A stretch of DNA of 63,990 nt, counting the filler. It is 5 parts of 5 records of this genome, joined end to end, with 100 filler letters (N's around TTAATTAATTAA, not from the genome) between each part and the next. Parts side by side here need not be neighbours in the genome. Positions count along the whole stretch, not along the records: positions 57,959 to 63,990 come from SRR31156797_10372; 4 more parts are not named here. One strand, 5' to 3'. Position 1 is the stretch's first letter; each line of letters begins with the position of its first letter. The notes beneath the pieces were generated by a model. The model was not told the DNA's origin, did no database searches, and worked only from the letters and a program-made list of their open reading frames with translations. This document shows positions 10,729 to 63,990 of this stretch, in pieces. The position numbers and the translations under genes are program-made.

Positions 10729-10828
10729 NNNNNNNNNNNNNNNNNNNNNNNNNNNNNNNNNNNNNNNNNNNNTTAATTAATTAANNNNNNNNNNNNNNNN
10801 NNNNNNNNNNNNNNNNNNNNNNNNNNNN
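10729..10828. other. Artificial contig linker
   Basis: N run with the six-frame-stop spacer TTAATTAATTAA, 100 nt. Confidence 0.99.
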
Positions 10829-15496: not shown

Positions 15497-15792
15497 ATCG
15501 TCCGGTAAAACAAGATTATAAAAGACCTACGCATATAAAAGATTTTCCTGTTGGACCACAATTTGATGCGGGTCACCTGGCTGATGAAAATGCTGGATGG
15601 CGCACATTCAAGCCTGTCGTGGATACTGAAAAGTGCATTAACTGTTTGATTTGTTACCTCGTTTGTCCTGATGGAACAATTGTAAAAGAAGAAAACCATG
15701 TAAGTGTAGCTTACGATTATTGTAAAGGTTGTGGAGTTTGTGCTAACGAATGTCCTAAAGATGCTATAAGTATGGTAAAAGATGAGCGCTAA
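15493..15792 (+). CDS. porD: 2-oxoacid:ferredoxin oxidoreductase delta subunit (2x[4Fe-4S])
   Basis: WRTFKP, CINCLICYLVCP, CKGCGVCANECP. Confidence 0.92.
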   Translation: MNRPVKQDYKRPTHIKDFPVGPQFDAGHLADENAGWRTFKPVVDTEKCINCLICYLVCPDGTIVKEENHVSVAYDYCKGCGVCANECPKDAISMVKDER

Positions 15793-15858
15793 AATTCTAA
15801 ATATTGAATAGGTATTATATTAATAATGAAATTCGATAATACTATTTTAAAAAAGATA

Positions 15859-15912
15859 ACAGAAGACAGAAAACAGAAGACAGAATATTAAAACGCTGTA
15901 TTCTGTATTCTT
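15859..15912. repeat. Heptamer tandem repeat (ACAGAAN)x4 followed by an inverted (TCTGTAT-like) array
   Basis: acagaag acagaaa acagaag acagaat ... ctgtattctgtattct. Confidence 0.7.
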
Positions 15913-15967
15913 GGATATAAAATCACTCTGCTTAAACACATAATTACAACCTATATTAAAAACTAAG

Positions 15968-17149
15968 ATGTCAAAAAAATTATTTATATCAGGTGATGAA
16001 GCCATAGCATTAGGAGCCAAGCTTGCACGCCCTCATGTTATTGCAGCCTATCCTATTACCCCTCAAACTATTGCCGTTGAACGCTTATCTGACATGGTAG
16101 AAAATGGCGAGCTAAAAGCTGAATATATGCACGTAGAGTCTGAACACTCTGCCATTTCAGCTTGTATGGGAGCTAGTGCCATTGGCGCACGTACTTTTAC
16201 TGCTTCATCATCGCAGGGACTGCTTTATATGGCTGAAGGATTACATTACTGTTCAGGAGGTCGCTATCCTGTAGTCATGATGAATGCCAACCGTTCTGTG
16301 GCACTTCCCTGGAGTATTTACGGAGATCAAAGGGACTCATTAGGATTATTGGACAGTGGTTGGATTCAAGTTTATGTTGAAGATGCACAAGAGGCGTTAG
16401 ATATGATGATTCAGGCATATAAAATTGCTGAAAATTCAAAAGTATTAACACCAATGATGGTTAATATCGACGGTTTCATCCTTACACATACTTATGAAAT
16501 GGTTGACATACCTGAACAGGAAAAAGTTGACGCATTCCTCCCCCCTTTCGAAACAGTAAACAAAATGAGCTTTGAGCAACCTAAAAACATGGGATTTAGC
16601 TCACAACCCATTGACAATACTGAATTTAAATATCAACAAGACCGTGCTATGTTCGATGCTATTCCAGTTATTAATAAGACTGATGAAGATTTTGCAAAAG
16701 CATTTGGCAGAAGATATTATGGCATGGTTGAAAACTATAAATGCGAGGATGCTGACTACATTATTATCACATTGGGAAGCGTTTGCGGTACGACACGCAT
16801 TATAGTTGATGAACTTCGCGAACAAGGCTTAAAAGTTGGAATGCTTAAAATACGCTATATGCGTCCATTCCCGGAAAAAGAAATACAGGAAATTACAGCA
16901 AATGCAAAAGCTATTGGCGTATTAGAAAAAAACATATCATTTGGATATGAAGGAACTGTTTTTACTAATGTGAATAGTGCCATTTCAAAAACACAAGCTC
17001 GTCCATTTATGAAAAACTTCGTTGGTGGATTTGGCGGCCGTGATATAACCAAACATGAAATCCGTCAGATGTTCGAAACATTAAAAGAACAATCAACACC
17101 CTCAAAAACTGTCGAATACTTTAACTTAAATGTAGCAATCGATGAATAA
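15968..17149 (+). CDS. porA: 2-oxoacid:ferredoxin oxidoreductase alpha subunit
   Basis: AAYPITPQT, VESEHSA, SSQGLLYM. Confidence 0.92.
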   Translation: MSKKLFISGDEAIALGAKLARPHVIAAYPITPQTIAVERLSDMVENGELKAEYMHVESEHSAISACMGASAIGARTFTASSSQGLLYMAEGLHYCSGGRYPVVMMNANRSVALPWSIYGDQRDSLGLLDSGWIQVYVEDAQEALDMMIQAYKIAENSKVLTPMMVNIDGFILTHTYEMVDIPEQEKVDAFLPPFETVNKMSFEQPKNMGFSSQPIDNTEFKYQQDRAMFDAIPVINKTDEDFAKAFGRRYYGMVENYKCEDADYIIITLGSVCGTTRIIVDELREQGLKVGMLKIRYMRPFPEKEIQEITANAKAIGVLEKNISFGYEGTVFTNVNSAISKTQARPFMKNFVGGFGGRDITKHEIRQMFETLKEQSTPSKTVEYFNLNVAIDE

Positions 17150-41549: not shown

Positions 41550-41649
41550 NNNNNNNNNNNNNNNNNNNNNNNNNNNNNNNNNNNNNNNNNNNNTTAATTA
41601 ATTAANNNNNNNNNNNNNNNNNNNNNNNNNNNNNNNNNNNNNNNNNNNN
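41550..41649. other. Artificial contig linker
   Basis: N run with TTAATTAATTAA. Confidence 0.99.
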
Positions 41650-41678
41650 TATTTATTCTTACTTTTGAGACAGCCCCT
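41650..41678 (-). mobile_element. Opposite IS terminal inverted repeat at the contig start
   Basis: ACTTTTGAGACAGCCCCT is the reverse complement of 41523-41540. Confidence 0.7.
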
Positions 41679-41697
41679 TGTTATTTTTGGCTTTGAT

Positions 41698-56337: not shown

Positions 56338-57726
56338 TTAAATTGTAAACGAATTGTTAATATTTTGTTTAATTTCTTTTGCTAATTCTTCTGCTTCCTT
56401 TACAGTTGGTGCTTCACAGTATATTCTGATAATAGGCTCAGTATTAGATTTCCGTAGATGAACCCAACCATTTTCAAAGTCAATTTTTACACCATCTGTT
56501 CTGTCAAATTGCTCGTTTTGATAGGCTTTTTCAACATTGTTTAAAAGTTCGTCAACATTGAGCTCAGGGCTCAGTTCAATTTTATCTTTGATAATAGTAT
56601 ATTTAGGATAACGTGCCTTTAGTTGAGAAACTGTAGTATCTTCTTGTGCCAGGTGGCTTAAAAACAATGCAATGCCTACTAGAGCATCTCTTCCATAATG
56701 TAATTCAGGGTAAATTACTCCGCCATTGCCTTCACCTCCAATTACTGCATCTTCTGCTTTCATAACTTCTACCACATTTACCTCACCCACTGCTGAAGCA
56801 AAATATTTACCACCAGCTTTCTCAGTAATATCCCTCAGTGCTCTGGAGCTTGATAAATTAGATACTGTATTGCCTTTGTTGTGTTTCAAAATGTATTCAG
56901 CCACAGCTACTATGGTATATTCTTCGCCAAACATTACTCCATTTTCATCAATTAACGCCAATCGATCTACGTCAGGGTCAACTACAATTCCAAGATCAGC
57001 TTTGTGCGATTTAACAGTTTCGCAGATTTCCACTACATTTTCTGGAAGTGGTTCTGCAGGGTGTGCAAAATGACCATTGGCTTCGCTGTTTAATTCAATA
57101 ATATCTGTCACGCCTAAGGCTCTTAACATGTCTGGAATAATTAATGCACCTACAGAATTAATTCCATCCACCACAACTTTAAAGTTTTTCTTTTTAATGG
57201 CTTCTGGTTTTACTAGATCCAATTTTACAATCTCATCAATATGTTCCTGATGATATGAGGCTGTTTCAATTTTACCTAAATTATGCACTTCTGCATACGC
57301 TTCAATTCCTTTATCTACAATTTCAAGAATAGCTTTTCCATCGTCACCACTTAAAAATTCACCTTTATGGTTTAGCATTTTTAAGGCATTCCATTGTAAT
57401 GGGTTGTGAGAAGCTGTTAAAATAAGTCCACCGTCAGCCTTAAAATGTACTACAGCCATTTCAGTAGTGGGAGTAGAGGCTAAATCAATATCAATTACAT
57501 CAATTCCACAACCGCTCAATGTGCCATTTACAATCATTTTTACCATTTCTCCGCTAATACGGGCATCACGGCCCACAACCACTTTTAATTTTTCTGTTTG
57601 TCGTGTTTTCTTAAGCCACTCAGCGTAGGCACTCACAAATTTTACGATATCCTCTGGTGTAAGATTATCTCCGGTTTTACCGCCTATTGTCCCTCTGATC
57701 CCTGAAATTGATTTTATTAATGACAT
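56338..57726 (-). CDS. glmM: Phosphoglucosamine mutase / phosphohexomutase
   Basis: SISGIRG, TASHNP, DPDVDR, GGEGNGG, RKSNTEP. Confidence 0.88.
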   Translation of the reverse strand: MSLIKSISGIRGTIGGKTGDNLTPEDIVKFVSAYAEWLKKTRQTEKLKVVVGRDARISGEMVKMIVNGTLSGCGIDVIDIDLASTPTTEMAVVHFKADGGLILTASHNPLQWNALKMLNHKGEFLSGDDGKAILEIVDKGIEAYAEVHNLGKIETASYHQEHIDEIVKLDLVKPEAIKKKNFKVVVDGINSVGALIIPDMLRALGVTDIIELNSEANGHFAHPAEPLPENVVEICETVKSHKADLGIVVDPDVDRLALIDENGVMFGEEYTIVAVAEYILKHNKGNTVSNLSSSRALRDITEKAGGKYFASAVGEVNVVEVMKAEDAVIGGEGNGGVIYPELHYGRDALVGIALFLSHLAQEDTTVSQLKARYPKYTIIKDKIELSPELNVDELLNNVEKAYQNEQFDRTDGVKIDFENGWVHLRKSNTEPIIRIYCEAPTVKEAEELAKEIKQNINNSFTI

Positions 57727-57828
57727 ATTTCTTAGTTTTGAACAAAAGTATAAAATCAATTTAAATTATAAGAGAAGTAGGATATATAGAATATTTAATT
57801 TTATGTTAATCATTGAGAATAAATAAAA

Positions 57829-57858
57829 GGCTGTCTCAAAAGTGCTTAATTAGCTCAA
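57829..57858 (+). mobile_element. Second copy of the same IS end at the contig end
   Basis: GGCTGTCTCAAAAGTGCTTAATTA identical to 41526-41549. Confidence 0.7.
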
Positions 57859-57958
57859 NNNNNNNNNNNNNNNNNNNNNNNNNNNNNNNNNNNNNNNNNN
57901 NNTTAATTAATTAANNNNNNNNNNNNNNNNNNNNNNNNNNNNNNNNNNNNNNNNNNNN
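57859..57958. other. Artificial contig linker
   Basis: N run with TTAATTAATTAA. Confidence 0.99.
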
Positions 57959-58002
57959 ACATGCAAAAACCGCACGTCGCTTTGGTCGTAAATCCGTTAG
58001 GC
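57959..58002 (+). mobile_element. attC site 0 (3' half)
   Basis: Ends in GTTAGGC (GTTRRRY); first 20 bp identical to 60959-60978 in attC3. Confidence 0.8.
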
Positions 58003-58044
58003 GACATATAATTTTCGAAATTAACAGATAAGAGGTGGAATGTT

Positions 58045-58818
58045 TTGAGATATTTTTTTAGTAGCGGGAATAGGAAATTGTCATATATTGATTATGGAGG
58101 ACAAGGACCAGTAGTGATTGCCTTACATGGTCACTTTGGATGCGCTTCAATGTATAGCCAATTGGCGAGTGATCTAGGTAATCGGTGTAGAGTTATTGCA
58201 TTGGATCAGCAAGGGCATGGATTTAGCGGTTTGGGAAAGAACTATACTAGAGAAGATTATATTGAAGATATTAATGAACTATATGGAGAATTGGGAATAG
58301 ATAGTGCAATTCTTATAGGTCATTCACTAGGAGGCGTCAATGCATATCAATTTGCAGTACGATATCCGGATAAGGTTGAACAATTGGTAGTTGAAGATAT
58401 TGGTGCGATTGTAGATGATGATTTGAGTTTTATATTGGAATGGCCAAAAACTTTCGAGAGCGCAAGAACAGCTTTCACTTTTCTTAAGAATAATGGAGTA
58501 GATAATTTCCTGTACTTTATGGAAAGCATGGTTCATGAAGATGATGGTTGGAAATTTATGTTTGATTCAAGAGGGATAGTAGAATCCCAGAAGAAGCTTA
58601 ACGGTAATTGGATAGATGATTGGAAGCGAATATCTTGTGATACATTATTACTTAACGGCGGTAGATCAGATGTATTAAGTAAAGAGCAGGCGAATGAGAT
58701 TACTAAAATGAATAAGAATGTATCTTTAGTTAGATTTAAAGAAGCAGGTCATACCATTAGAGATGATGACTATTGTGGTTATAAAACTGCAATTACTGAG
58801 TTTATTGGGGTGAGCTGA
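58045..58818 (+). CDS. Alpha/beta hydrolase (cassette 1)
   Basis: LHG, DQQGHG.S, GHSLGG, AGH; TTG start with GAGGTGG RBS. Confidence 0.9.
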   Translation: MRYFFSSGNRKLSYIDYGGQGPVVIALHGHFGCASMYSQLASDLGNRCRVIALDQQGHGFSGLGKNYTREDYIEDINELYGELGIDSAILIGHSLGGVNAYQFAVRYPDKVEQLVVEDIGAIVDDDLSFILEWPKTFESARTAFTFLKNNGVDNFLYFMESMVHEDDGWKFMFDSRGIVESQKKLNGNWIDDWKRISCDTLLLNGGRSDVLSKEQANEITKMNKNVSLVRFKEAGHTIRDDDYCGYKTAITEFIGVS

Positions 58819-58848
58819 GATTTATCTAGGATTGTCAGATTATACGTT

Positions 58849-58925
58849 GCCTAACAGCAAATTGACAACATGGCCGTTATTATCGAAAGGACGGCACACG
58901 CTCGTCAACTCACAGGACATTATGA
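58849..58925 (+). mobile_element. attC site 1 (77 bp)
   Basis: GCCTAAC...TTGAC..GCCGT..ACGGC..GTCAA...CAGGAC-ATTATGA. Confidence 0.8.
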
Positions 58926-58967
58926 GAAACAAACTAACTAGAATTATTAAACTAAGGAGGAAGCTTT

Positions 58968-59600
58968 ATGAAATTACGTAAGCTAATTAATTATTGCGGT
59001 ATGATTAGTTATTTTATTTTATTCACTTTGCCAATATATTTACTTAGACATACCAATCTAACAACTTCAATGGAATTTATTTTATGTATTCATTTAGTAA
59101 TTACTCCTATAATTTTAAGACATTTTTTAATAAGTAATTTTTTTTATTTAGTTAAATCTAATACAGCTGAAGCTTGTGTTTATGCTGATACTGAATTTTT
59201 AGATTTTATTCCAGCTATAGGTCCTATTTTCTTTTTTAACCTACTTGCTTTTTTTATAATTAAAGAAAGTAACTTAGTCTTTTTTTTAGTTTTTTCTATA
59301 ATTTCTTTTAATTATTGTTATCGGTTTATAAGCTTTTTTATTTGTGCAGAAACAAATCTATATATAATGAAATTAAATAGTATTAAAATAATAAAGATAA
59401 TCGACATAAAACGCGTTAGCCCTTCTTATTCTATGACAAATTTTACTAGAGGTGGACGTAATTATAAGTATACTAGCGGTGTTTATATTGAGTTACACAA
59501 TGAAAAGCCTATTCACTTAATCGGTTTTTTTAACTCAAAAAGTGTTAAGTCTATATTTGAAAATATAAATAAATATCAATCAGTTACTTCAAACGATTAA
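58968..59600 (+). CDS. Hypothetical membrane protein (cassette 2)
   Basis: AAGGAGG RBS; about 4 TM; very AT-rich. Confidence 0.7.
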   Translation: MKLRKLINYCGMISYFILFTLPIYLLRHTNLTTSMEFILCIHLVITPIILRHFLISNFFYLVKSNTAEACVYADTEFLDFIPAIGPIFFFNLLAFFIIKESNLVFFLVFSIISFNYCYRFISFFICAETNLYIMKLNSIKIIKIIDIKRVSPSYSMTNFTRGGRNYKYTSGVYIELHNEKPIHLIGFFNSKSVKSIFENINKYQSVTSND

Positions 59601-59802
59601 TTTTATTAGTTATATAAAAGTTCTTTTTTATTTTTAATCTATCCAACTTATAACTATCTTAACACTTTTATAAGCATAAGTTACATGAATCTTAAAACAA
59701 TTGGAAAAATAGTAACAAATTTAGAGTTTTTTCTATCGTGGGAAGAAACTTTTACCCTGTTCTCAAAAAACATGTTAAAAACATAATAAGCATTCTAAAA
59801 TC

Positions 59803-59862
59803 TCATAACACACGGCAGATTCCATGAAAAACGCACGGCATCTGTCCGTCAGGACATTATAG
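59803..59862 (+). mobile_element. attC site 2 (60 bp)
   Basis: TCATAAC-acACGGCAGAT...ATCTG(T)CCGT-CAGGAC-ATTATAG with one unpaired base. Confidence 0.8.
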
Positions 59863-59923
59863 AAAATTATAACTAAAAAAATATTACACTTTAATTTTTA
59901 AAGGGGGTATCAATATTTATACT

Positions 59924-60934
59924 TTGAAAAGTTCTACAATTAATGCATTAAGTTCAATTTACCTCCATTTAACAGTGGTCATTATTATTAGTTTTTTCTT
60001 TGTTAGAAACTCTACATTAAACGAAAAATTTATCATTACCAAGATTATTACTCTTTGGGGTATTTTTTTGACAAACTTCTTAATAGATTCTGTTGAAAAA
60101 ATCATTCTAAAGAAAAACTTTAGAAACAAAAAATATGATTTTCATGAGAAATTTGTAGTGGTTAATTCGTATGATAAGCCTTTTCTTTCAGATACTACAG
60201 TTTTTGAAATCTATTCGTCAATGATATTAATTTTAATTTGTTTTTTAAATAATAATCAGACAATATTAATTCTTCTTCTTTACTTCAGTATAAGAATATT
60301 AAAAAGAAATTTTATTTACATCTTTGATTTAAAAGAAAATAATATTTCAATTGGAGAAATACCTATTTCTATTAATAAAAGAATTTGGATTTCTAATTCT
60401 GATTTAGGAAACATTGCATTTAGTTTAACAGAATCAAGAAAAATAAAAACAATTAACATGAATATCCTTTCTAGGACTTACAACCGGGGTAAAAGAAATA
60501 TTTCAAACAATTATGAAAAAAATTATTACAATATGCATATTATTACTGAAAACTTAAATAATATTTATATTGAATTAGGAACAACCATTTCAAATATAAA
60601 AAAAGATGACTTTTTAGAAGAAAGTACGATAGTAAATTATTCTTTAAACTCAAAAAATAAAAACCAAGAGAATAATATTAACATTCGCAATATAGTTGAT
60701 TTTTTTAATAAAAGCATGAATATATTTATAAAAGTCAGAAAAAAAAACCATATTTTAACCAGCTATTTATTCCCTGTTCTATCTATGTTTTTTGTGTTTA
60801 TAACTATAGTAATGTTCTTTGGGGATTTTAAATTATTATCAAGAAATAATTTTTTTATATTAACAGTTTTTCTTTCAGTAATAAATCTCATTTTAGAGAT
60901 TAATATTAGATTCAAATGGAAACTAATGTCTTAA
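59924..60934 (+). CDS. Hypothetical membrane protein (cassette 3)
   Basis: 336-aa ORF with N- and C-terminal TM segments; stop 4 nt before attC3. Confidence 0.65.
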   Translation: MKSSTINALSSIYLHLTVVIIISFFFVRNSTLNEKFIITKIITLWGIFLTNFLIDSVEKIILKKNFRNKKYDFHEKFVVVNSYDKPFLSDTTVFEIYSSMILILICFLNNNQTILILLLYFSIRILKRNFIYIFDLKENNISIGEIPISINKRIWISNSDLGNIAFSLTESRKIKTINMNILSRTYNRGKRNISNNYEKNYYNMHIITENLNNIYIELGTTISNIKKDDFLEESTIVNYSLNSKNKNQENNINIRNIVDFFNKSMNIFIKVRKKNHILTSYLFPVLSMFFVFITIVMFFGDFKLLSRNNFFILTVFLSVINLILEINIRFKWKLMS

Positions 60935-60938
60935 GAAT

Positions 60939-61002
60939 CTATAACATGCTGACAGTCAACATGCAAAAACCGCACGTCAGTTAGGTCACAGGAGCGTTAT
61001 AT
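60939..61002 (+). mobile_element. attC site 3 (64 bp)
   Basis: CTATAAC...ACATGCAAAAACCGCACGTC...TCACAGGAGC-GTTATAT. Confidence 0.8.
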
Positions 61003-61033
61003 ACAATTAAAAAAATTATCTCTTGGAGGATTT

Positions 61034-61750
61034 ATGGAACTTGAAAGTAAATATCAAGAAATGTCTAATGAGAAGCTTTTTAAAAAATATGAAGATTTAC
61101 TCTTCTTTACGGAACTCGAGCAGAAGATCATTATCCGTGAAAGAGAGAAAAGATTAGTTTGTTTAAAAGTAAAGAATGGTAATAATGAAAAAACAAAACC
61201 ATTAACAGGAATGCGTAAAATATTTGGTTGGATTTTTGTCCTATTTCTTCTTTCAATAATAATAAATGGATTCATTAATTATTTTAACGGTTTCTATAAA
61301 AATATAGAAGTCAACTCATTTGTGAAGATTCTCCCTTACACATTTCTTATCTCCATAGTATTATTTATTATTCTTAGGTTAATTTTTGGAAAAATTTGGG
61401 ATGTATTTTTAATTGATTTTATTTGTATAAATTTGTTCTTCATGATAATTCTTCCAGATGGACTACTAATGAATATTAACAATTTCCATGAAAAAAGAGA
61501 GGTTATTTTTAAAGGAAGAGTTACACGTTTCTATAGTCATTATAGAAAAGGGAGTTGTATTGAAATTAGTAATTCAAATTCTAAACTTAATATATATCTA
61601 AATAGAAAAAGAAATTATCAAATTTCTAATAAGGTGAGTAATTTCAAAGATGCTTATATCGAAATAGAAATTAAAGAAGGAATCTTTGGTGTGTTTTTCA
61701 ATCCTAAAATTCTCAAAATCGAAAATAAAAATATTAGGATTAAATTTTAA
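61034..61750 (+). CDS. Hypothetical membrane protein (cassette 4)
   Basis: GGAGG RBS; three TM segments. Confidence 0.7.
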   Translation: MELESKYQEMSNEKLFKKYEDLLFFTELEQKIIIREREKRLVCLKVKNGNNEKTKPLTGMRKIFGWIFVLFLLSIIINGFINYFNGFYKNIEVNSFVKILPYTFLISIVLFIILRLIFGKIWDVFLIDFICINLFFMIILPDGLLMNINNFHEKREVIFKGRVTRFYSHYRKGSCIEISNSNSKLNIYLNRKRNYQISNKVSNFKDAYIEIEIKEGIFGVFFNPKILKIENKNIRIKF

Positions 61751-61813
61751 ATGAAGAAGGAAATCGATTATTTAAAAATATTTGCATAAATATACATTTG
61801 AGGTGAAAAATAG

Positions 61814-62248
61814 ATGAACCGTTTTAAAATGAATGTCGCTGTACATTTATTTCTTGAAAAGAATGATAAAATCTTACTCTTGAGAAGATTTAATACAGGA
61901 TATCAGGATGGAAATTATAGTGTAATTGCAGGGCGTATTGATGGGCAGGAAGATTTTGTTTCAGCAATTATTAGAGAAGCAAAAGAGGAAGCTGGTATAA
62001 TATTGACAGAAGATGACGTTACCCCAATTCAAGTAATGCATCGAAAAAAAATAGATAGTGAGTATATTGATTACTTCTTCCATGCAAAATCATGGAAAAA
62101 TAGAATTGAAAATATGGAACCAGATAAATGTGATGAACTGAGTTGGTATAATAAAAATGAATTACCAACAAATATAATCCCATATATCAGAGCCGCGATA
62201 ATGAATTATTCCGAAAACAAAGTATTTACAAAATTTGGTTGGGAGTAA
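61814..62248 (+). CDS. NUDIX hydrolase
   Basis: Nudix box G.IDGQE....AIIREAKEEAG; NMEPDKC. Confidence 0.92.
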   Translation: MNRFKMNVAVHLFLEKNDKILLLRRFNTGYQDGNYSVIAGRIDGQEDFVSAIIREAKEEAGIILTEDDVTPIQVMHRKKIDSEYIDYFFHAKSWKNRIENMEPDKCDELSWYNKNELPTNIIPYIRAAIMNYSENKVFTKFGWE

Positions 62249-62368
62249 ATTAGTAACTTTTTTAAATAAAATTTTAATTGTTCTACATTTTAAAAACTTA
62301 TGAAAAGTATTTTGCTTAAGTTATGTATTTGTTAGGTAATAAAATAATAAAAAAATTAAAGGAGAATC

Positions 62369-62830
62369 ATGAATAATAAACTTAATTTTTATATTACTAA
62401 ATTTAACCAAATGGAATTTAATATACTAAAAAAAATTCTAATAAAAAAAGTTTATATACTTTGTAGTCCAGAAAATTTTCTTTTTTCGTGTAATGAGAAT
62501 CTTCAACAAGTTATGACTACAATTGAAATTTCTAAAGAAAGAAATAGAGTTGTTTCTGTAGGAGAACCTTTCATAGATACTATTAAGAATGAGTGCATTA
62601 ACTTATTTGATTTAAATCTACAAATAGACGAAGAAGAATATCTTTTATACCTTCAAAGTTATTTACTATATTTCACTCGAAAAGTTGCTAAAAATTTATT
62701 AATTAAACCCATTGTCATTATTTGCGAATCTGATAGTCTACCCAATAATTTTAACACAAGTCAAAAAGAACTACTTAGAAAGGCTCTTCTAAATCTAGAA
62801 ATAGATAATTCTATTTTTATAGATAAATAA
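62369..62830 (+). CDS. Hypothetical protein
   Basis: AAGGAG RBS; 153 aa; no motif recognised. Confidence 0.6.
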   Translation: MNNKLNFYITKFNQMEFNILKKILIKKVYILCSPENFLFSCNENLQQVMTTIEISKERNRVVSVGEPFIDTIKNECINLFDLNLQIDEEEYLLYLQSYLLYFTRKVAKNLLIKPIVIICESDSLPNNFNTSQKELLRKALLNLEIDNSIFIDK

Positions 62831-62877
62831 GCTTATCATAGATGTCGCTAAGCTAGAACTAAAAATAAGGGGAAGTT

Positions 62878-63495
62878 ATGAATAAAATTTATATTATACA
62901 ACATTGTCAATCTGAACATCATGTAAACGAATTAACTGGTGGGTGGACGGATACACCATTAACACAATTAGGTATGAAGCAAGCTCAACAAGTTGCGAAT
63001 GAATTAAAAAATCTGGGAGTCGAAAAGGATTTTGAGCTGTATTCTTCTGATTTAAAAAGAGCAAGTATGACAGCAGAAGCAATTGAGAAGAAGTTTAATG
63101 TGGAGATGATTTTAGATAAATCATTAAGAGAACACAATAACGGAAAAGCAGCTAATAAATCTGGAGAATGGGCTAGGAAAAATTTTCTCTATCACTCTTC
63201 AAGAATCGAGTTAGATAAACCTTTGTGGGAAAATGCTGAAACATATAGAGAATTATATAATAGAATGAAAGAATTTAAGACTAGAGTGATTGATAAATCA
63301 GTGAAGGATATAATCATAGTGTCGCATGGTGTAGCTATTGGATACCTGATCTGGGCATATCTTAATATTGAGTGCGACCTTGTTGTAGAGTCATTTATAC
63401 GTGGTGGTGCTGGTGGAGTATCAATCTTATCAAAAAGTCCAATGGGACAAAACACTTTGAATTTATTTAATTCTAGTGCGCACCTGAATTTCTAA
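62878..63495 (+). CDS. Histidine phosphatase family protein
   Basis: QHCQS (RHG-equivalent), DTPLT..G..QA, SSDLKRA, LRE, VSHG. Confidence 0.88.
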   Translation: MNKIYIIQHCQSEHHVNELTGGWTDTPLTQLGMKQAQQVANELKNLGVEKDFELYSSDLKRASMTAEAIEKKFNVEMILDKSLREHNNGKAANKSGEWARKNFLYHSSRIELDKPLWENAETYRELYNRMKEFKTRVIDKSVKDIIIVSHGVAIGYLIWAYLNIECDLVVESFIRGGAGGVSILSKSPMGQNTLNLFNSSAHLNF

Positions 63496-63513
63496 CAGAA
63501 TGGAGCATACACA

Positions 63514-63927
63514 ATGATAAAAATAAGAGAAGTTATAGACAAAGATTTAGAATCTTTACTAATTCTGGATAAACATGTTAATAAAGAAATTCTTAAGAAA
63601 AAAATTAGAGATAAAGAGATTATTGTTTTACTTCAAGATAATGAAATAATTGGATGGTTAAGATACAGCTTCTTTTGGGATGAACACCCATTTATGAATA
63701 TGCTGTTCATAATTGATGAGTATAGAGCAAAAGGTTACGGTACTAAACTTACACTTTATTGGGAAAAGTTGATGTTAGAAAGAGGATATAAAACTCTTAT
63801 GCTTAGCACACAATCAAATGAATACTCACAGCATTTTTATAGAAAATTAGGTTATACAGATGTGGGCAGCTTCAGTATGCACAATGAACCACTGGAATTA
63901 ATTCTGATTAAGGAATTGAGTAAATAG
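63514..63927 (+). CDS. GNAT family N-acetyltransferase
   Basis: YRAKGYG, STQSNE.SQHFYRKLGY. Confidence 0.9.
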   Translation: MIKIREVIDKDLESLLILDKHVNKEILKKKIRDKEIIVLLQDNEIIGWLRYSFFWDEHPFMNMLFIIDEYRAKGYGTKLTLYWEKLMLERGYKTLMLSTQSNEYSQHFYRKLGYTDVGSFSMHNEPLELILIKELSK

Positions 63928-63990
63928 ACAAATGGAGAAAACAATGAGAAATCAAAAACACACGCCGCAAGCGGACGGGGTATGGTGTAG

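What the first reader, a model, noticed from the sequence alone, without database searches (positions are those of the whole stretch)
58849..59862. Two attC sites carry ATT instead of the canonical GTT crossover triplet
attC1 and attC2 both end CAGGAC-ATTAT (58919, 59856), whereas attC0 and attC3 end C-GTT. The GTT triplet is normally highly conserved at IntI crossover points. On the bottom strand, ATT would replace a G-C pair with a G-T wobble. The same variant in two otherwise divergent sites suggests either an integrase with relaxed or altered specificity, or a recurrent change that locks cassettes in place. Standard attC models could miss such sites.
Basis: partly seen in the sequence, partly recalled or inferred. 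Interest (0 to 1): 0.7.

Follow-up and report, generated by a model that had tools for sequence, protein, structure and literature searches.

The report
Integron cassette sites with ATT crossover
Two neighbouring recombination sites in a small gene-cassette array really do carry A instead of the usual G at the strand-exchange point, and this looks like a rare, repeatedly arising, probably tolerated variant of an ordinary site, not a new recombination specificity.

Summary
Window 57959-63990 is one 6-kb contig of a metagenome bin, cut at both ends inside attC repeats, and it carries an integron-type cassette array. attC1 and attC2 end A|TTATGA (58919) and A|TTATAG (59856). attC0 and attC3 end G|TTAGGC and G|TTATAT.

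The boundaries are real:
- Each TTRRRY hexamer is the exact complement of the next attC's inverse core (3 of 3).
- A helix scan blind to the first base picks the same positions.
- ATT sits where a 92%-identical attC in an Ilyobacter MAG has GTT.

In the same attC family, found in four Fusobacteriota genomes, 34 of 38 model hits read GTT, 3 read ATT (two here, one in another genome, also boundary-consistent) and 1 reads CTT. All 10 close copies of the family's attI motif (0-1 mismatch) read G|TT there. ATT is therefore a derived minority allele that arose at least three times, not a changed system specificity.

On the more stable minus strand it turns the closing C-G pair into a T.G wobble. Class 1 data show that a G-to-A site is still cleaved. 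Whether these sites still recombine is untested. Interest is modest.

Side finding: the only intact recombinase next to such an array is IntI-like but lacks the IntI-specific domain.

The parts
57859..57958 (.). Contig-join linker (N44 + TTAATTAATTAA + N44). It is not biological sequence. The array contig starts at 57959.
   Evidence: four identical linkers in the window.
57959..58002 (+). attC0, 3' part only (cut by the contig start). R' is GTTAGGC at 57996-58002.
   Evidence: It is 90% identical to an attC of G001.
57997..58919 (+). Cassette 1. It starts TTAGGC, carries an alpha/beta-hydrolase ORF at 58045-58818 and ends with attC1.
   Evidence: (PF00561, PF12697).
58849..58925 (+). attC1. 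R'' is GCCTAAC at 58849-58855, followed by a 16-bp imperfect stem. R' is ATTATGA at 58919-58925, with A at 58919 in place of G.
   Evidence: (26.9 bits).
58920..59856 (+). Cassette 2. It starts TTATGA, carries a 210-aa ORF at 58968-59600 with no Pfam match and ends with attC2. Both of its boundaries are ATT sites.
59803..59862 (+). attC2. R'' is TCATAAC at 59803-59809, followed by a 14-bp stem. R' is ATTATAG at 59856-59862, with A at 59856 in place of G.
   Evidence: (61.7 bits). It is 92% identical over 53 nt to a GTT site of G001.
59857..60996 (+). Cassette 3. It starts TTATAG, carries a 336-aa ORF at 59924-60934 with no Pfam match and ends with attC3.
60939..61002 (+). attC3. R'' is CTATAAC and R' is GTTATAT at 60996-61002 (canonical G).
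   Evidence: 64.4 bits. Its own fold is weak (z -0.9).
60997..63952 (+). Five co-directional ORFs (unknown, NUDIX, unknown, histidine phosphatase, GNAT) with no attC detected between them. The expected inverse core ATATAAC is absent.
63953..63990 (+). 5' part of a further attC-like repeat (CAAAAAC ACACGCC...), cut by the contig end.
   Evidence: at least four other contigs of run X1 share 63948-63990, and the summed depth there is 803.6 against 35.

Best explanation
What it is: attC1 and attC2 are genuine attC recombination sites of an integron-type cassette array. In each, the one base 5' of the crossover has changed from G to A on the cassette-sense strand, which is C to T on the opposite strand.

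What the base does (taken from class 1 integrons): this is the single 'docking' nucleotide that travels with the attC body. After cleavage between AA and C on the bottom strand, it must pair with the G of the partner's R'' or attI.

Expected effect (inferred): both sites keep AAC in R'', so the folded minus strand closes its R box with a T.G wobble in place of C-G. After strand swap the T would again face a G, whatever the partner. The sites should therefore still be cleaved and still recombine, at normal or somewhat reduced rate, with GTT and ATT partners alike.

Origin (shown): ATT is a derived, minority, recurrent allele in a family whose attI and most attC sites read GTT. It does not signal a new specificity.

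Shown: site identity, boundaries, register, rarity, recurrence. Inferred: which strand is used, cleavage, and the size of any loss of activity.
For: - Boundaries: the hexamer after each first base complements the next inverse core, 3 of 3 in the window and 16 of 21 consecutive pairs over all arrays.
- Position: the first-base-blind stem scan agrees with the model-defined R' in 31 of 37 sites, including all three ATT sites and the CTT site.
- Register: ATT aligns with GTT at the same 6-nt spacing in a 92%-identical site. After the 7-mer come GAAAC and AAAAT, as after GTT sites of the family.
- Structure: all 8 stem pairs show changes on both sides and 0 of 500 shuffles reach the covariation score, on a model-fitted alignment.
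- Strand: the minus strand is the more stable in 33 of 37 sites, mean -11.55 against -9.90 kcal/mol, and in the window's 3 of 3.
- Census: 34 GTT, 3 ATT and 1 gap (C) among 38 hits. Outside the window that is 1 ATT of 33.
- Third ATT site: L046:2102-2208 in genome G144 has R' ATTACAC, the next inverse core is GTGTAAC, and a GTT homologue lies in the same array.
- attI: the 10 motif matches with 0-1 mismatch read G|TT, as the pattern itself required. Where conservation breaks was read in 7 of them.
- Literature: with IntI1 the G1-to-A1 substrate is cleaved in vitro, and full recombination returns when docking complementarity is kept (PMC2811028, sections 13 and 18).
Against: - No activity data exist for this system.
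- In class 1, changing G1/C3' in one partner only cost 1000- to 10000-fold (PMC2811028). A wobble was not tested there, so the mild effect is my inference.
- Two ATT sites side by side among four are unexpected if the allele frequency is about 3% and events are independent (roughly 0.5% by my arithmetic, post hoc). The model does not explain the adjacency.
- The cognate recombinase of the window's array is unknown, because the contig ends in attC repeats.
- The only intact recombinase next to a related array lacks the IntI-specific domain, so class 1 rules may not transfer.
- Models R1 and R2 were trained with the two window ATT sites included.
- The base calls rest on one read set.
Confidence: 0.55

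Rival explanations
1. Decayed sites. The G-to-A changes arose after the array was assembled and disable strand exchange, so cassettes 1 to 3 are frozen in place as a fused block.
For: - ATT is rare among relatives, 1 of 33 outside the window.
- Single-partner changes of this base cost 1000- to 10000-fold in class 1 (PMC2811028, section 13).
- No recombinase lies on the contig.
- Three of the four related genomes lack an intact IntI-like gene, so decay is going on in this family.
- Downstream of attC3, five ORFs follow without any detectable attC.
Against: - Stems and spacers of both sites are intact and score as well as GTT sites in the blind scan (16.1 and 11.9).
- No TT-position change was seen in the 38 hits, against 4 first-base changes. 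That fits a tolerated position better than random decay, but both detectors favour xTT.
- The natural change keeps a wobble pair, unlike the tested mutants.
Confidence: 0.25
2. Compatibility class. ATT sites recombine efficiently only with ATT sites because the first nucleotide must be identical in both partners. An ATT cassette then lands next to an ATT site, and cassette 2 becomes a private excision unit.
For: - Identity of the first nucleotide in both partners was the only absolute requirement found for IntI1 (PMC2811028, abstract and discussion).
- The two ATT sites are adjacent and flank one cassette.
Against: - In those experiments the pairing base in R'' was changed too. Here R'' stays AAC, so a T faces G with any partner and no ATT-specific advantage follows (inference).
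- The third ATT site, in G144, is followed by a GTT site, and the nearest detected site upstream also reads GTT.
Confidence: 0.1
3. Not a point change. The canonical R' was lost by a 10-nt deletion or by use of a secondary site, leaving a GACATTAT motif that normally lies just downstream of R'. One relative reads CAGACC GTTAGGT GACATTATGG.
For: Removing 10 nt from the G001 site gives CAG GACATTAT, an 8-of-8 match to attC2. Several cassettes start TTAGNN GACAT.
Against: - The hexamers TTATGA and TTATAG co-vary with the next inverse cores TCATAA and CTATAA.
- Stem-to-triplet spacing is unchanged.
- The five bases after the 7-mer (GAAAC, AAAAT) match the family's usual register.
- The third ATT site has no GACAT context.
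Confidence: 0.05
4. Assembly or sequencing error at both positions.
For: There is a single read set, and the contig is bounded by repeats.
Against: - An identical Logan contig exists at word depth 35 with no other letters.
- The same change occurs at homologous positions in two unlike sites.
- An ATT site is present in an unrelated assembly.
Confidence: 0.03

Closest known systems
attC sites of integron cassette arrays (class 1 cassettes, Vibrio VCRs). On a contig without an integrase this is a 'CALIN' in IntegronFinder's terms.
   Same: - ORF followed by an imperfect hairpin bounded by RYYYAAC and xTTRRRY.
- Cassette boundary one base into R', so that the hexamer pairs with the next cassette's inverse core.
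- The strand opposite the ORFs folds more stably.
- Co-varying stems.
(definitions from PMC5027507 and PMC2727003, passages read)
   Different: - The first base of the conserved triplet is A in 2 of the window's 4 sites.
- The L'-R' spacer is 3-4 nt longer than the R''-L'' spacer in most sites.
- No consistent side for bulged bases was found (13 sites 3' arm, 7 sites 5' arm, 13 equal).
- No integrase lies on the contig.
Engineered G1-to-A1 cleavage-site mutants of attCaadA7, attCVCRd and attI1 (Frumerie et al. 2010, PMC2811028)
   Same: The same base is changed in the same way. Those substrates are cleaved by IntI1 and recombine fully when the partner matches.
   Different: - The engineered attC mutants also changed the complementary base in R'', giving an A-T pair. 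The natural sites keep C/G there, giving a T.G wobble.
- The recombinase is different.
- This is natural occurrence, not design.
Integrons whose integrase gene points the same way as the cassettes, as in Treponema denticola
   Same: In relative G001 the recombinase gene, the attI and the cassettes all point the same way, with attI about 70 nt after the stop codon.
   Different: The G001 protein lacks the IntI-specific domain. As I recall, those integrases have it.

Membership tests
integron attC site | Inverse core RYYYAAC at the 5' end and core GTTRRRY at the 3' end | tested here: not met
   R'' ends AAC in attC1, attC2 and attC3. R' reads ATTATGA and ATTATAG in attC1 and attC2, so position 1 fails and positions 2-7 fit. 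attC0 and attC3 meet it fully.
integron attC site | Imperfect hairpin (L boxes, variable loop) supported by covariation | tested here: met
   82.2% of cells are paired, all 8 stem pairs change on both sides, and 0 of 500 shuffles reach the score (alignment fitted to the model); z -3.0 and -4.7 for attC1 and attC2, but only -0.9 for attC3.
integron attC site | Crossover between position 1 and 2 of R', so that the following hexamer pairs with the next cassette's inverse core | tested here: met
   3 of 3 in the window and 16 of 21 evaluated pairs over all arrays. Among 7 attI copies that were read, conservation stops at G|TT.
integron attC site | Bottom strand folds more stably than the top strand | tested here: met
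   33 of 37 sites. Window sites: -12.2/-10.3, -11.1/-6.9 and -6.0/-4.9 kcal/mol.
integron attC site | Extrahelical bases on the arm opposite the cleaved AAC of the bottom strand | tested here: inconclusive
   [quoted passage not shown] Over 33 sites there is no consistent side. The rule is from PMC5027507 (passages read).
complete integron | Adjacent intI gene with the IntI-specific additional domain | not testable with these tools
   The contig ends inside attC repeats on both sides and no genome is held. tblastn of the G001 recombinase against the window gives nothing below E = 1.9. In relative G001 the adjacent recombinase scores 224.9 bits on TIGR02249 against a cut-off of 265 and lacks about 42 residues of that domain.
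complete integron | attI site next to the integrase where cassettes are inserted | not testable with these tools
   None lies in the window. In relatives the motif matches 10 places with 0-1 mismatch in 3 of 190 Fusobacteriota genomes and 4 more places in 4 other genomes with 2 mismatches (7 of 190 genomes in all). The reversed control gives 2 hits.
CALIN (attC cluster without integrase) | Two or more attC sites with no integron integrase nearby | tested here: met
   Three complete and two cut attC sites lie in 6 kb, and no tyrosine recombinase ORF lies on the contig. The contig is truncated, so this is a description and not proof of absence.

The most novel reading that the evidence does not exclude
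The window's array belongs to an undescribed integron lineage seen so far in a few Fusobacteriota genomes.

Its features would be:
- an IntI-like recombinase without the IntI-specific domain that reads extrahelical bases in known integrases;
- an attI lying downstream of the gene and pointing the same way;
- several platforms per genome;
- an asymmetric central spacer.

In this lineage the docking base would be less constrained (G, A and once C), because site recognition differs from that of known IntI enzymes.
Probability: 0.2. Interest if true: 0.7.

Novelty: new variant of a known kind. Interest (0 to 1): 0.4.

Why it matters
The GTT triplet is the only sequence shared by all integron sites. 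Frumerie et al. called its conservation absolute and put it down to the need to exchange cassettes between integrons, not to chemistry.

Natural attC sites with ATT that sit at correct cassette boundaries, and that arose at least three times in one family, would be field evidence for that view. They also give a ready-made test of whether a wobble at the docking base is tolerated.

In practice, annotation that insists on GTT will place cassette boundaries wrongly or merge cassettes.

The effect is small in scope: one base, a minority of sites, and no functional data.

Tried and rejected
- **Whole genome of the window:** none is held.
- **Exact-word scans for more family members:**
  - The attC0/attC3 20-mer found one genome, G001.
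  - It found one unrelated viral contig.
  - The attC2 19-mer found 16 metagenome contigs, none of them an attC.
  - The 19-mer of the end repeat found two unrelated viral contigs.
- **Other collections:** plasmids by blastn gave no match. Rfam gave no match at E up to 10.
- **Host placement:**
  - The housekeeping contig does not match G001's genus at DNA level.
  - Its GlmM is at most 30% identical to Fusobacteriaceae proteins and is of the TIGR03990 type.
  - The bin is probably not Fusobacteriota, or the array contig is mis-binned. This is left open.
- **Recombinase relatives:** P0001 at E <= 1e-60 was found in G001 alone among 131 family genomes.
- **GTT-only covariance model:** It was replaced by a sequence-only profile.
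- **R' finder based on folding energy:** unselective and dropped.
- **Chain walker that maximises summed stem scores:** it ran on into noise, so only its high-scoring steps were read.
- **Wobble asymmetry in the model-defined stem pairs:** 9 bottom-strand against 7 top-strand wobbles, so no signal.
- **Excision products:** Logan contigs show no joint at 58919 or 59856. The one joint listed (59844 to 57966) lies inside two similar attC loops. Contigs cannot show rare forms.
- **Literature:** four full-text searches found no report of natural ATT attC sites. Supplements were not readable, and attC tables in them could hold such cases.

Full report
**Setting**

The window is a chain of contigs joined by 100-base linkers (N44 + TTAATTAATTAA + N44) at 10729, 30049, 41550 and 57859. 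The finding lies on the last contig, 57959-63990. That contig begins inside one attC-like repeat and ends inside another.

One public run holds the stretch. It is a 915-Mb set of Logan contigs, so a metagenome and probably the source. It contains an identical 6032-base contig at word depth 35 with no differing letters. Other contigs of the run share only the repeat parts: 57959-58000, 59798-59849 and 63948-63990.

The window is therefore from a metagenome bin and no whole genome is held. The array is not physically linked to the rest of the window.

**The observation**

Four co-directional units follow the pattern ORF, then imperfect hairpin.

| Site | Inverse core (R'') | End of site and R' | First base of R' |
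|---|---|---|---|
| attC0 | cut by contig start | AAATCC GTTAGGC | G, 57996 |
| attC1 | GCCTAAC, 58849 | CACAGGAC ATTATGA | A, 58919 |
| attC2 | TCATAAC, 59803 | GTCAGGAC ATTATAG | A, 59856 |
| attC3 | CTATAAC, 60939 | AGGAGC GTTATAT | G, 60996 |

**Are these the crossover positions?**

Three lines of evidence agree, and none depends on the identity of the first base.

1. In an integron array the six bases after the crossover belong to the next cassette and must pair with that cassette's own inverse core. Here TTAGGC/GCCTAA, TTATGA/TCATAA and TTATAG/CTATAA match 6 of 6 each. The two ATT sites differ from each other in the hexamer, and the partner boxes differ with them.
2. A scan that looks only for the best stem between an inverse core and any xTT puts R' at 58919 (score 16.1, runner-up 8.7) and 59856 (11.9, runner-up 5.5). 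The same scan agrees with the covariance-model R' in 31 of 37 family sites.
3. attC2 is 92% identical over 53 bases to a site in an uncultured Ilyobacter MAG (G001). That site ends CCATCAGACC GTTAGGT, with the same six-base spacer between stem and triplet.

The minus strands of attC1 and attC2 fold at -12.2 and -11.1 kcal/mol, and 0 of 200 shuffles do as well. attC3 folds weakly, with z -0.9.

**The family**

Two covariance models, built first from 7 and then from 21 sites, were run over fetched regions of four Fusobacteriota genomes: G001, G011 of the same genus, G144 and G003. They gave 38 hits including the five window rows.

- Stem pairs co-vary: all 8 pairs change on both sides and 0 of 500 shuffles reach the score, with the caveat that the alignment is fitted to the model.
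- The minus strand is the more stable in 33 of 37 sites.
- The boundary rule holds for 16 of 21 consecutive pairs.
- Of the five breaks, the one I looked at (L045, between 8359 and 10387) coincides with what looks like a GC-rich foreign insertion. The other four were not examined.

These are bona fide attC-type sites.

The platform was also found. A conserved region of about 90 nt ends TATGCGTRTATARAYGAG|TTA. It matches 10 places with 0-1 mismatch in 3 of 190 Fusobacteriota genomes, and 4 further places in 4 other genomes with 2 mismatches, so 7 of 190 genomes match in all. The reversed-pattern control gave 2 hits. Among the 7 copies I read, conservation stops at G|TT and the following hexamer pairs with the first attC's inverse core.

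**Census of the first base**

| Set | GTT | ATT | Other |
|---|---|---|---|
| All 38 model hits | 34 | 3 | 1 (aligned as a gap by the model, C by the blind scan) |
| 33 hits outside the window | 31 | 1 | 1 |

- The third ATT site is L046:2102-2208 in G144. It reads GTGGAACC ATTACAC, the next inverse core is GTGTAAC, and a GTT homologue in the same array ends GTGGGAAC GTTATAC.
- The CTT site is the last site of one G001 array.
- All 10 close attI copies read G at this position, as the search pattern required.

GTT is therefore the system's normal triplet. ATT is a derived allele that arose at least three times on unrelated attC bodies. At the TT positions no change was seen in the 38 hits, but both detectors favour xTT, so this comparison is weak.

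**Mechanism**

Established facts for class 1 integrons:
- The C is the only base that must pair after strand swap.
- Mutating G1/C3' in one partner costs 1000- to 10000-fold, and mutating both partners alike restores recombination.
- G1-to-A1 substrates are cleaved in vitro (PMC2811028, sections 13 and 18).

Those attC mutants changed both R' and R''. The natural sites here keep AAC in R''.

My inference runs as follows. On the minus strand the R box closes with T.G in place of C-G. After exchange the T again meets a G, in any attC or attI of this family. That predicts a tolerated site, possibly weakened, with no partner preference.

It also removes the basis for a 'private ATT class', although adjacency of the two sites is otherwise unexplained. 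At a frequency near 3%, two of four is about a 0.5% event, judged post hoc.

The alternative that these are dead sites freezing cassettes 1 to 3 cannot be excluded without an assay.

**A rival that was set aside**

One relative reads CAGACC GTTAGGT GACATTATGG. Deleting ten bases would recreate CAG GACATTAT. Three things argue against this origin:
- the hexamer covariation with the next inverse cores;
- the unchanged stem-to-triplet spacing;
- the usual GAAAC and AAAAT following the 7-mer.

**Which enzyme?**

Nothing on the contig or elsewhere in the window resembles a tyrosine recombinase of this kind.

In G001 the array starts about 70 nt after a 352-aa recombinase gene that points the same way as the cassettes.
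- The protein passes NF040815 (238.5 bits, cut-off 220) and misses TIGR02249 (224.9 bits, cut-off 265).
- Its best solved relative is VchIntIA (2a3v, E 4e-43). It has 21 residues where VchIntIA has 63 (residues 183-245), which by my recollection is the IntI-specific domain.

Only this copy is intact.
- G144 keeps the C-terminal half and G011 keeps a 55-residue remnant.
- No IntI-like gene at E <= 1e-25 was found in G011, G144 or G003.
- No close relative of the protein was found in the other 130 family genomes.

This is a lead for a distinct integron lineage and is not part of the finding proper.

**Host**

The cassette pool and the attC family point to Fusobacteriota. The neighbouring contig's GlmM is of the TIGR03990 type and is at most 30% identical to Fusobacteriaceae proteins. 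The array contig may be mis-binned.

**Comparison and verdict**

The sites work like, and by most tests are, integron attC sites. They fail one defining feature, the G of GTT, in two of four cases.

Four full-text searches found no report of natural ATT sites. Frumerie et al. describe GTT conservation as absolute in the integrons then characterised. Supplementary tables, where site lists would be, could not be read.

I rate this a real, small variant of a known kind. It is worth a census and one assay, and it is not a new specificity.

Noticed in passing
L017:9578-10636 (G001:C3:101578-102636) and L017:10637-10711: An IntI-like tyrosine recombinase of 352 aa lies directly upstream of an attC array and points the same way. 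Its closest solved structure is VchIntIA, but it has 21 residues where VchIntIA has 63, so the IntI-specific domain seems absent. It also carries an N-terminal extension of about 80 aa. A conserved attI-like region follows its stop codon.
   Followed up: partly
G001:C2:292828, G001:C3:102691, G011 (4 places), G144 (4 places): Ten copies of the attI-like motif occur in three genomes, each followed by cassettes where I looked. Only one has an intact recombinase beside it, one has half a gene and one has a 55-aa remnant. That means several platforms per genome, most of them without their enzyme.
   Followed up: partly
L045:14588-14640 (G144:C1, about 74590): A sequence beginning GTGCGACCAGCCC starts a few bases after the R' of an attC. 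A reverse-transcriptase-sized ORF lies about 1.2 kb downstream at 15791-16849, and larger ORFs follow. It looks like a group II intron inserted at an attC, as is known for group IIC-attC introns (recalled).
   Followed up: no
L001:225-1555 (G001:C3, about 104225-105555): The second cassette of the G001 array carries a 452-aa ORF and a 195-aa membrane-like ORF. By eye the larger one looks like a reverse transcriptase, possibly a retron or other defence module in a cassette. It was not scanned.
   Followed up: no
window 60997-63952: Five co-directional ORFs (unknown, NUDIX, unknown, histidine phosphatase, GNAT acetyltransferase) follow attC3 with no detectable attC between them. The inverse core expected from TTATAT is absent. 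This is either a large multi-gene cassette or several cassettes whose sites have decayed.
   Followed up: partly
window 63948-63990: The contig ends in an attC-like repeat whose summed contig depth in the source run is 803.6 against 35 for the unique sequence. This attC type is very abundant in that community.
   Followed up: no
all family sites: The unpaired spacer between stem and R box is consistently 3-4 nt longer on the R' side (1/5, 2/6, 3/6, 4/7). [quoted passage not shown] Over the family no consistent side was seen.
   Followed up: partly
window 41550-41680 and 57830-57858: Two contigs end in the same GGCTGTCTCAAAAGTGCTTAATTA-type sequence and another begins with its inverted form. 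A dispersed repeat or terminator-like element seems to break the assembly.
   Followed up: no
window 56338-57759 (-): The phosphoglucosamine mutase is of the TIGR03990 type (522 bits). It is at most 30% identical to the best Fusobacteriaceae matches, which argues that the bulk of the bin is not Fusobacteriota.
   Followed up: partly
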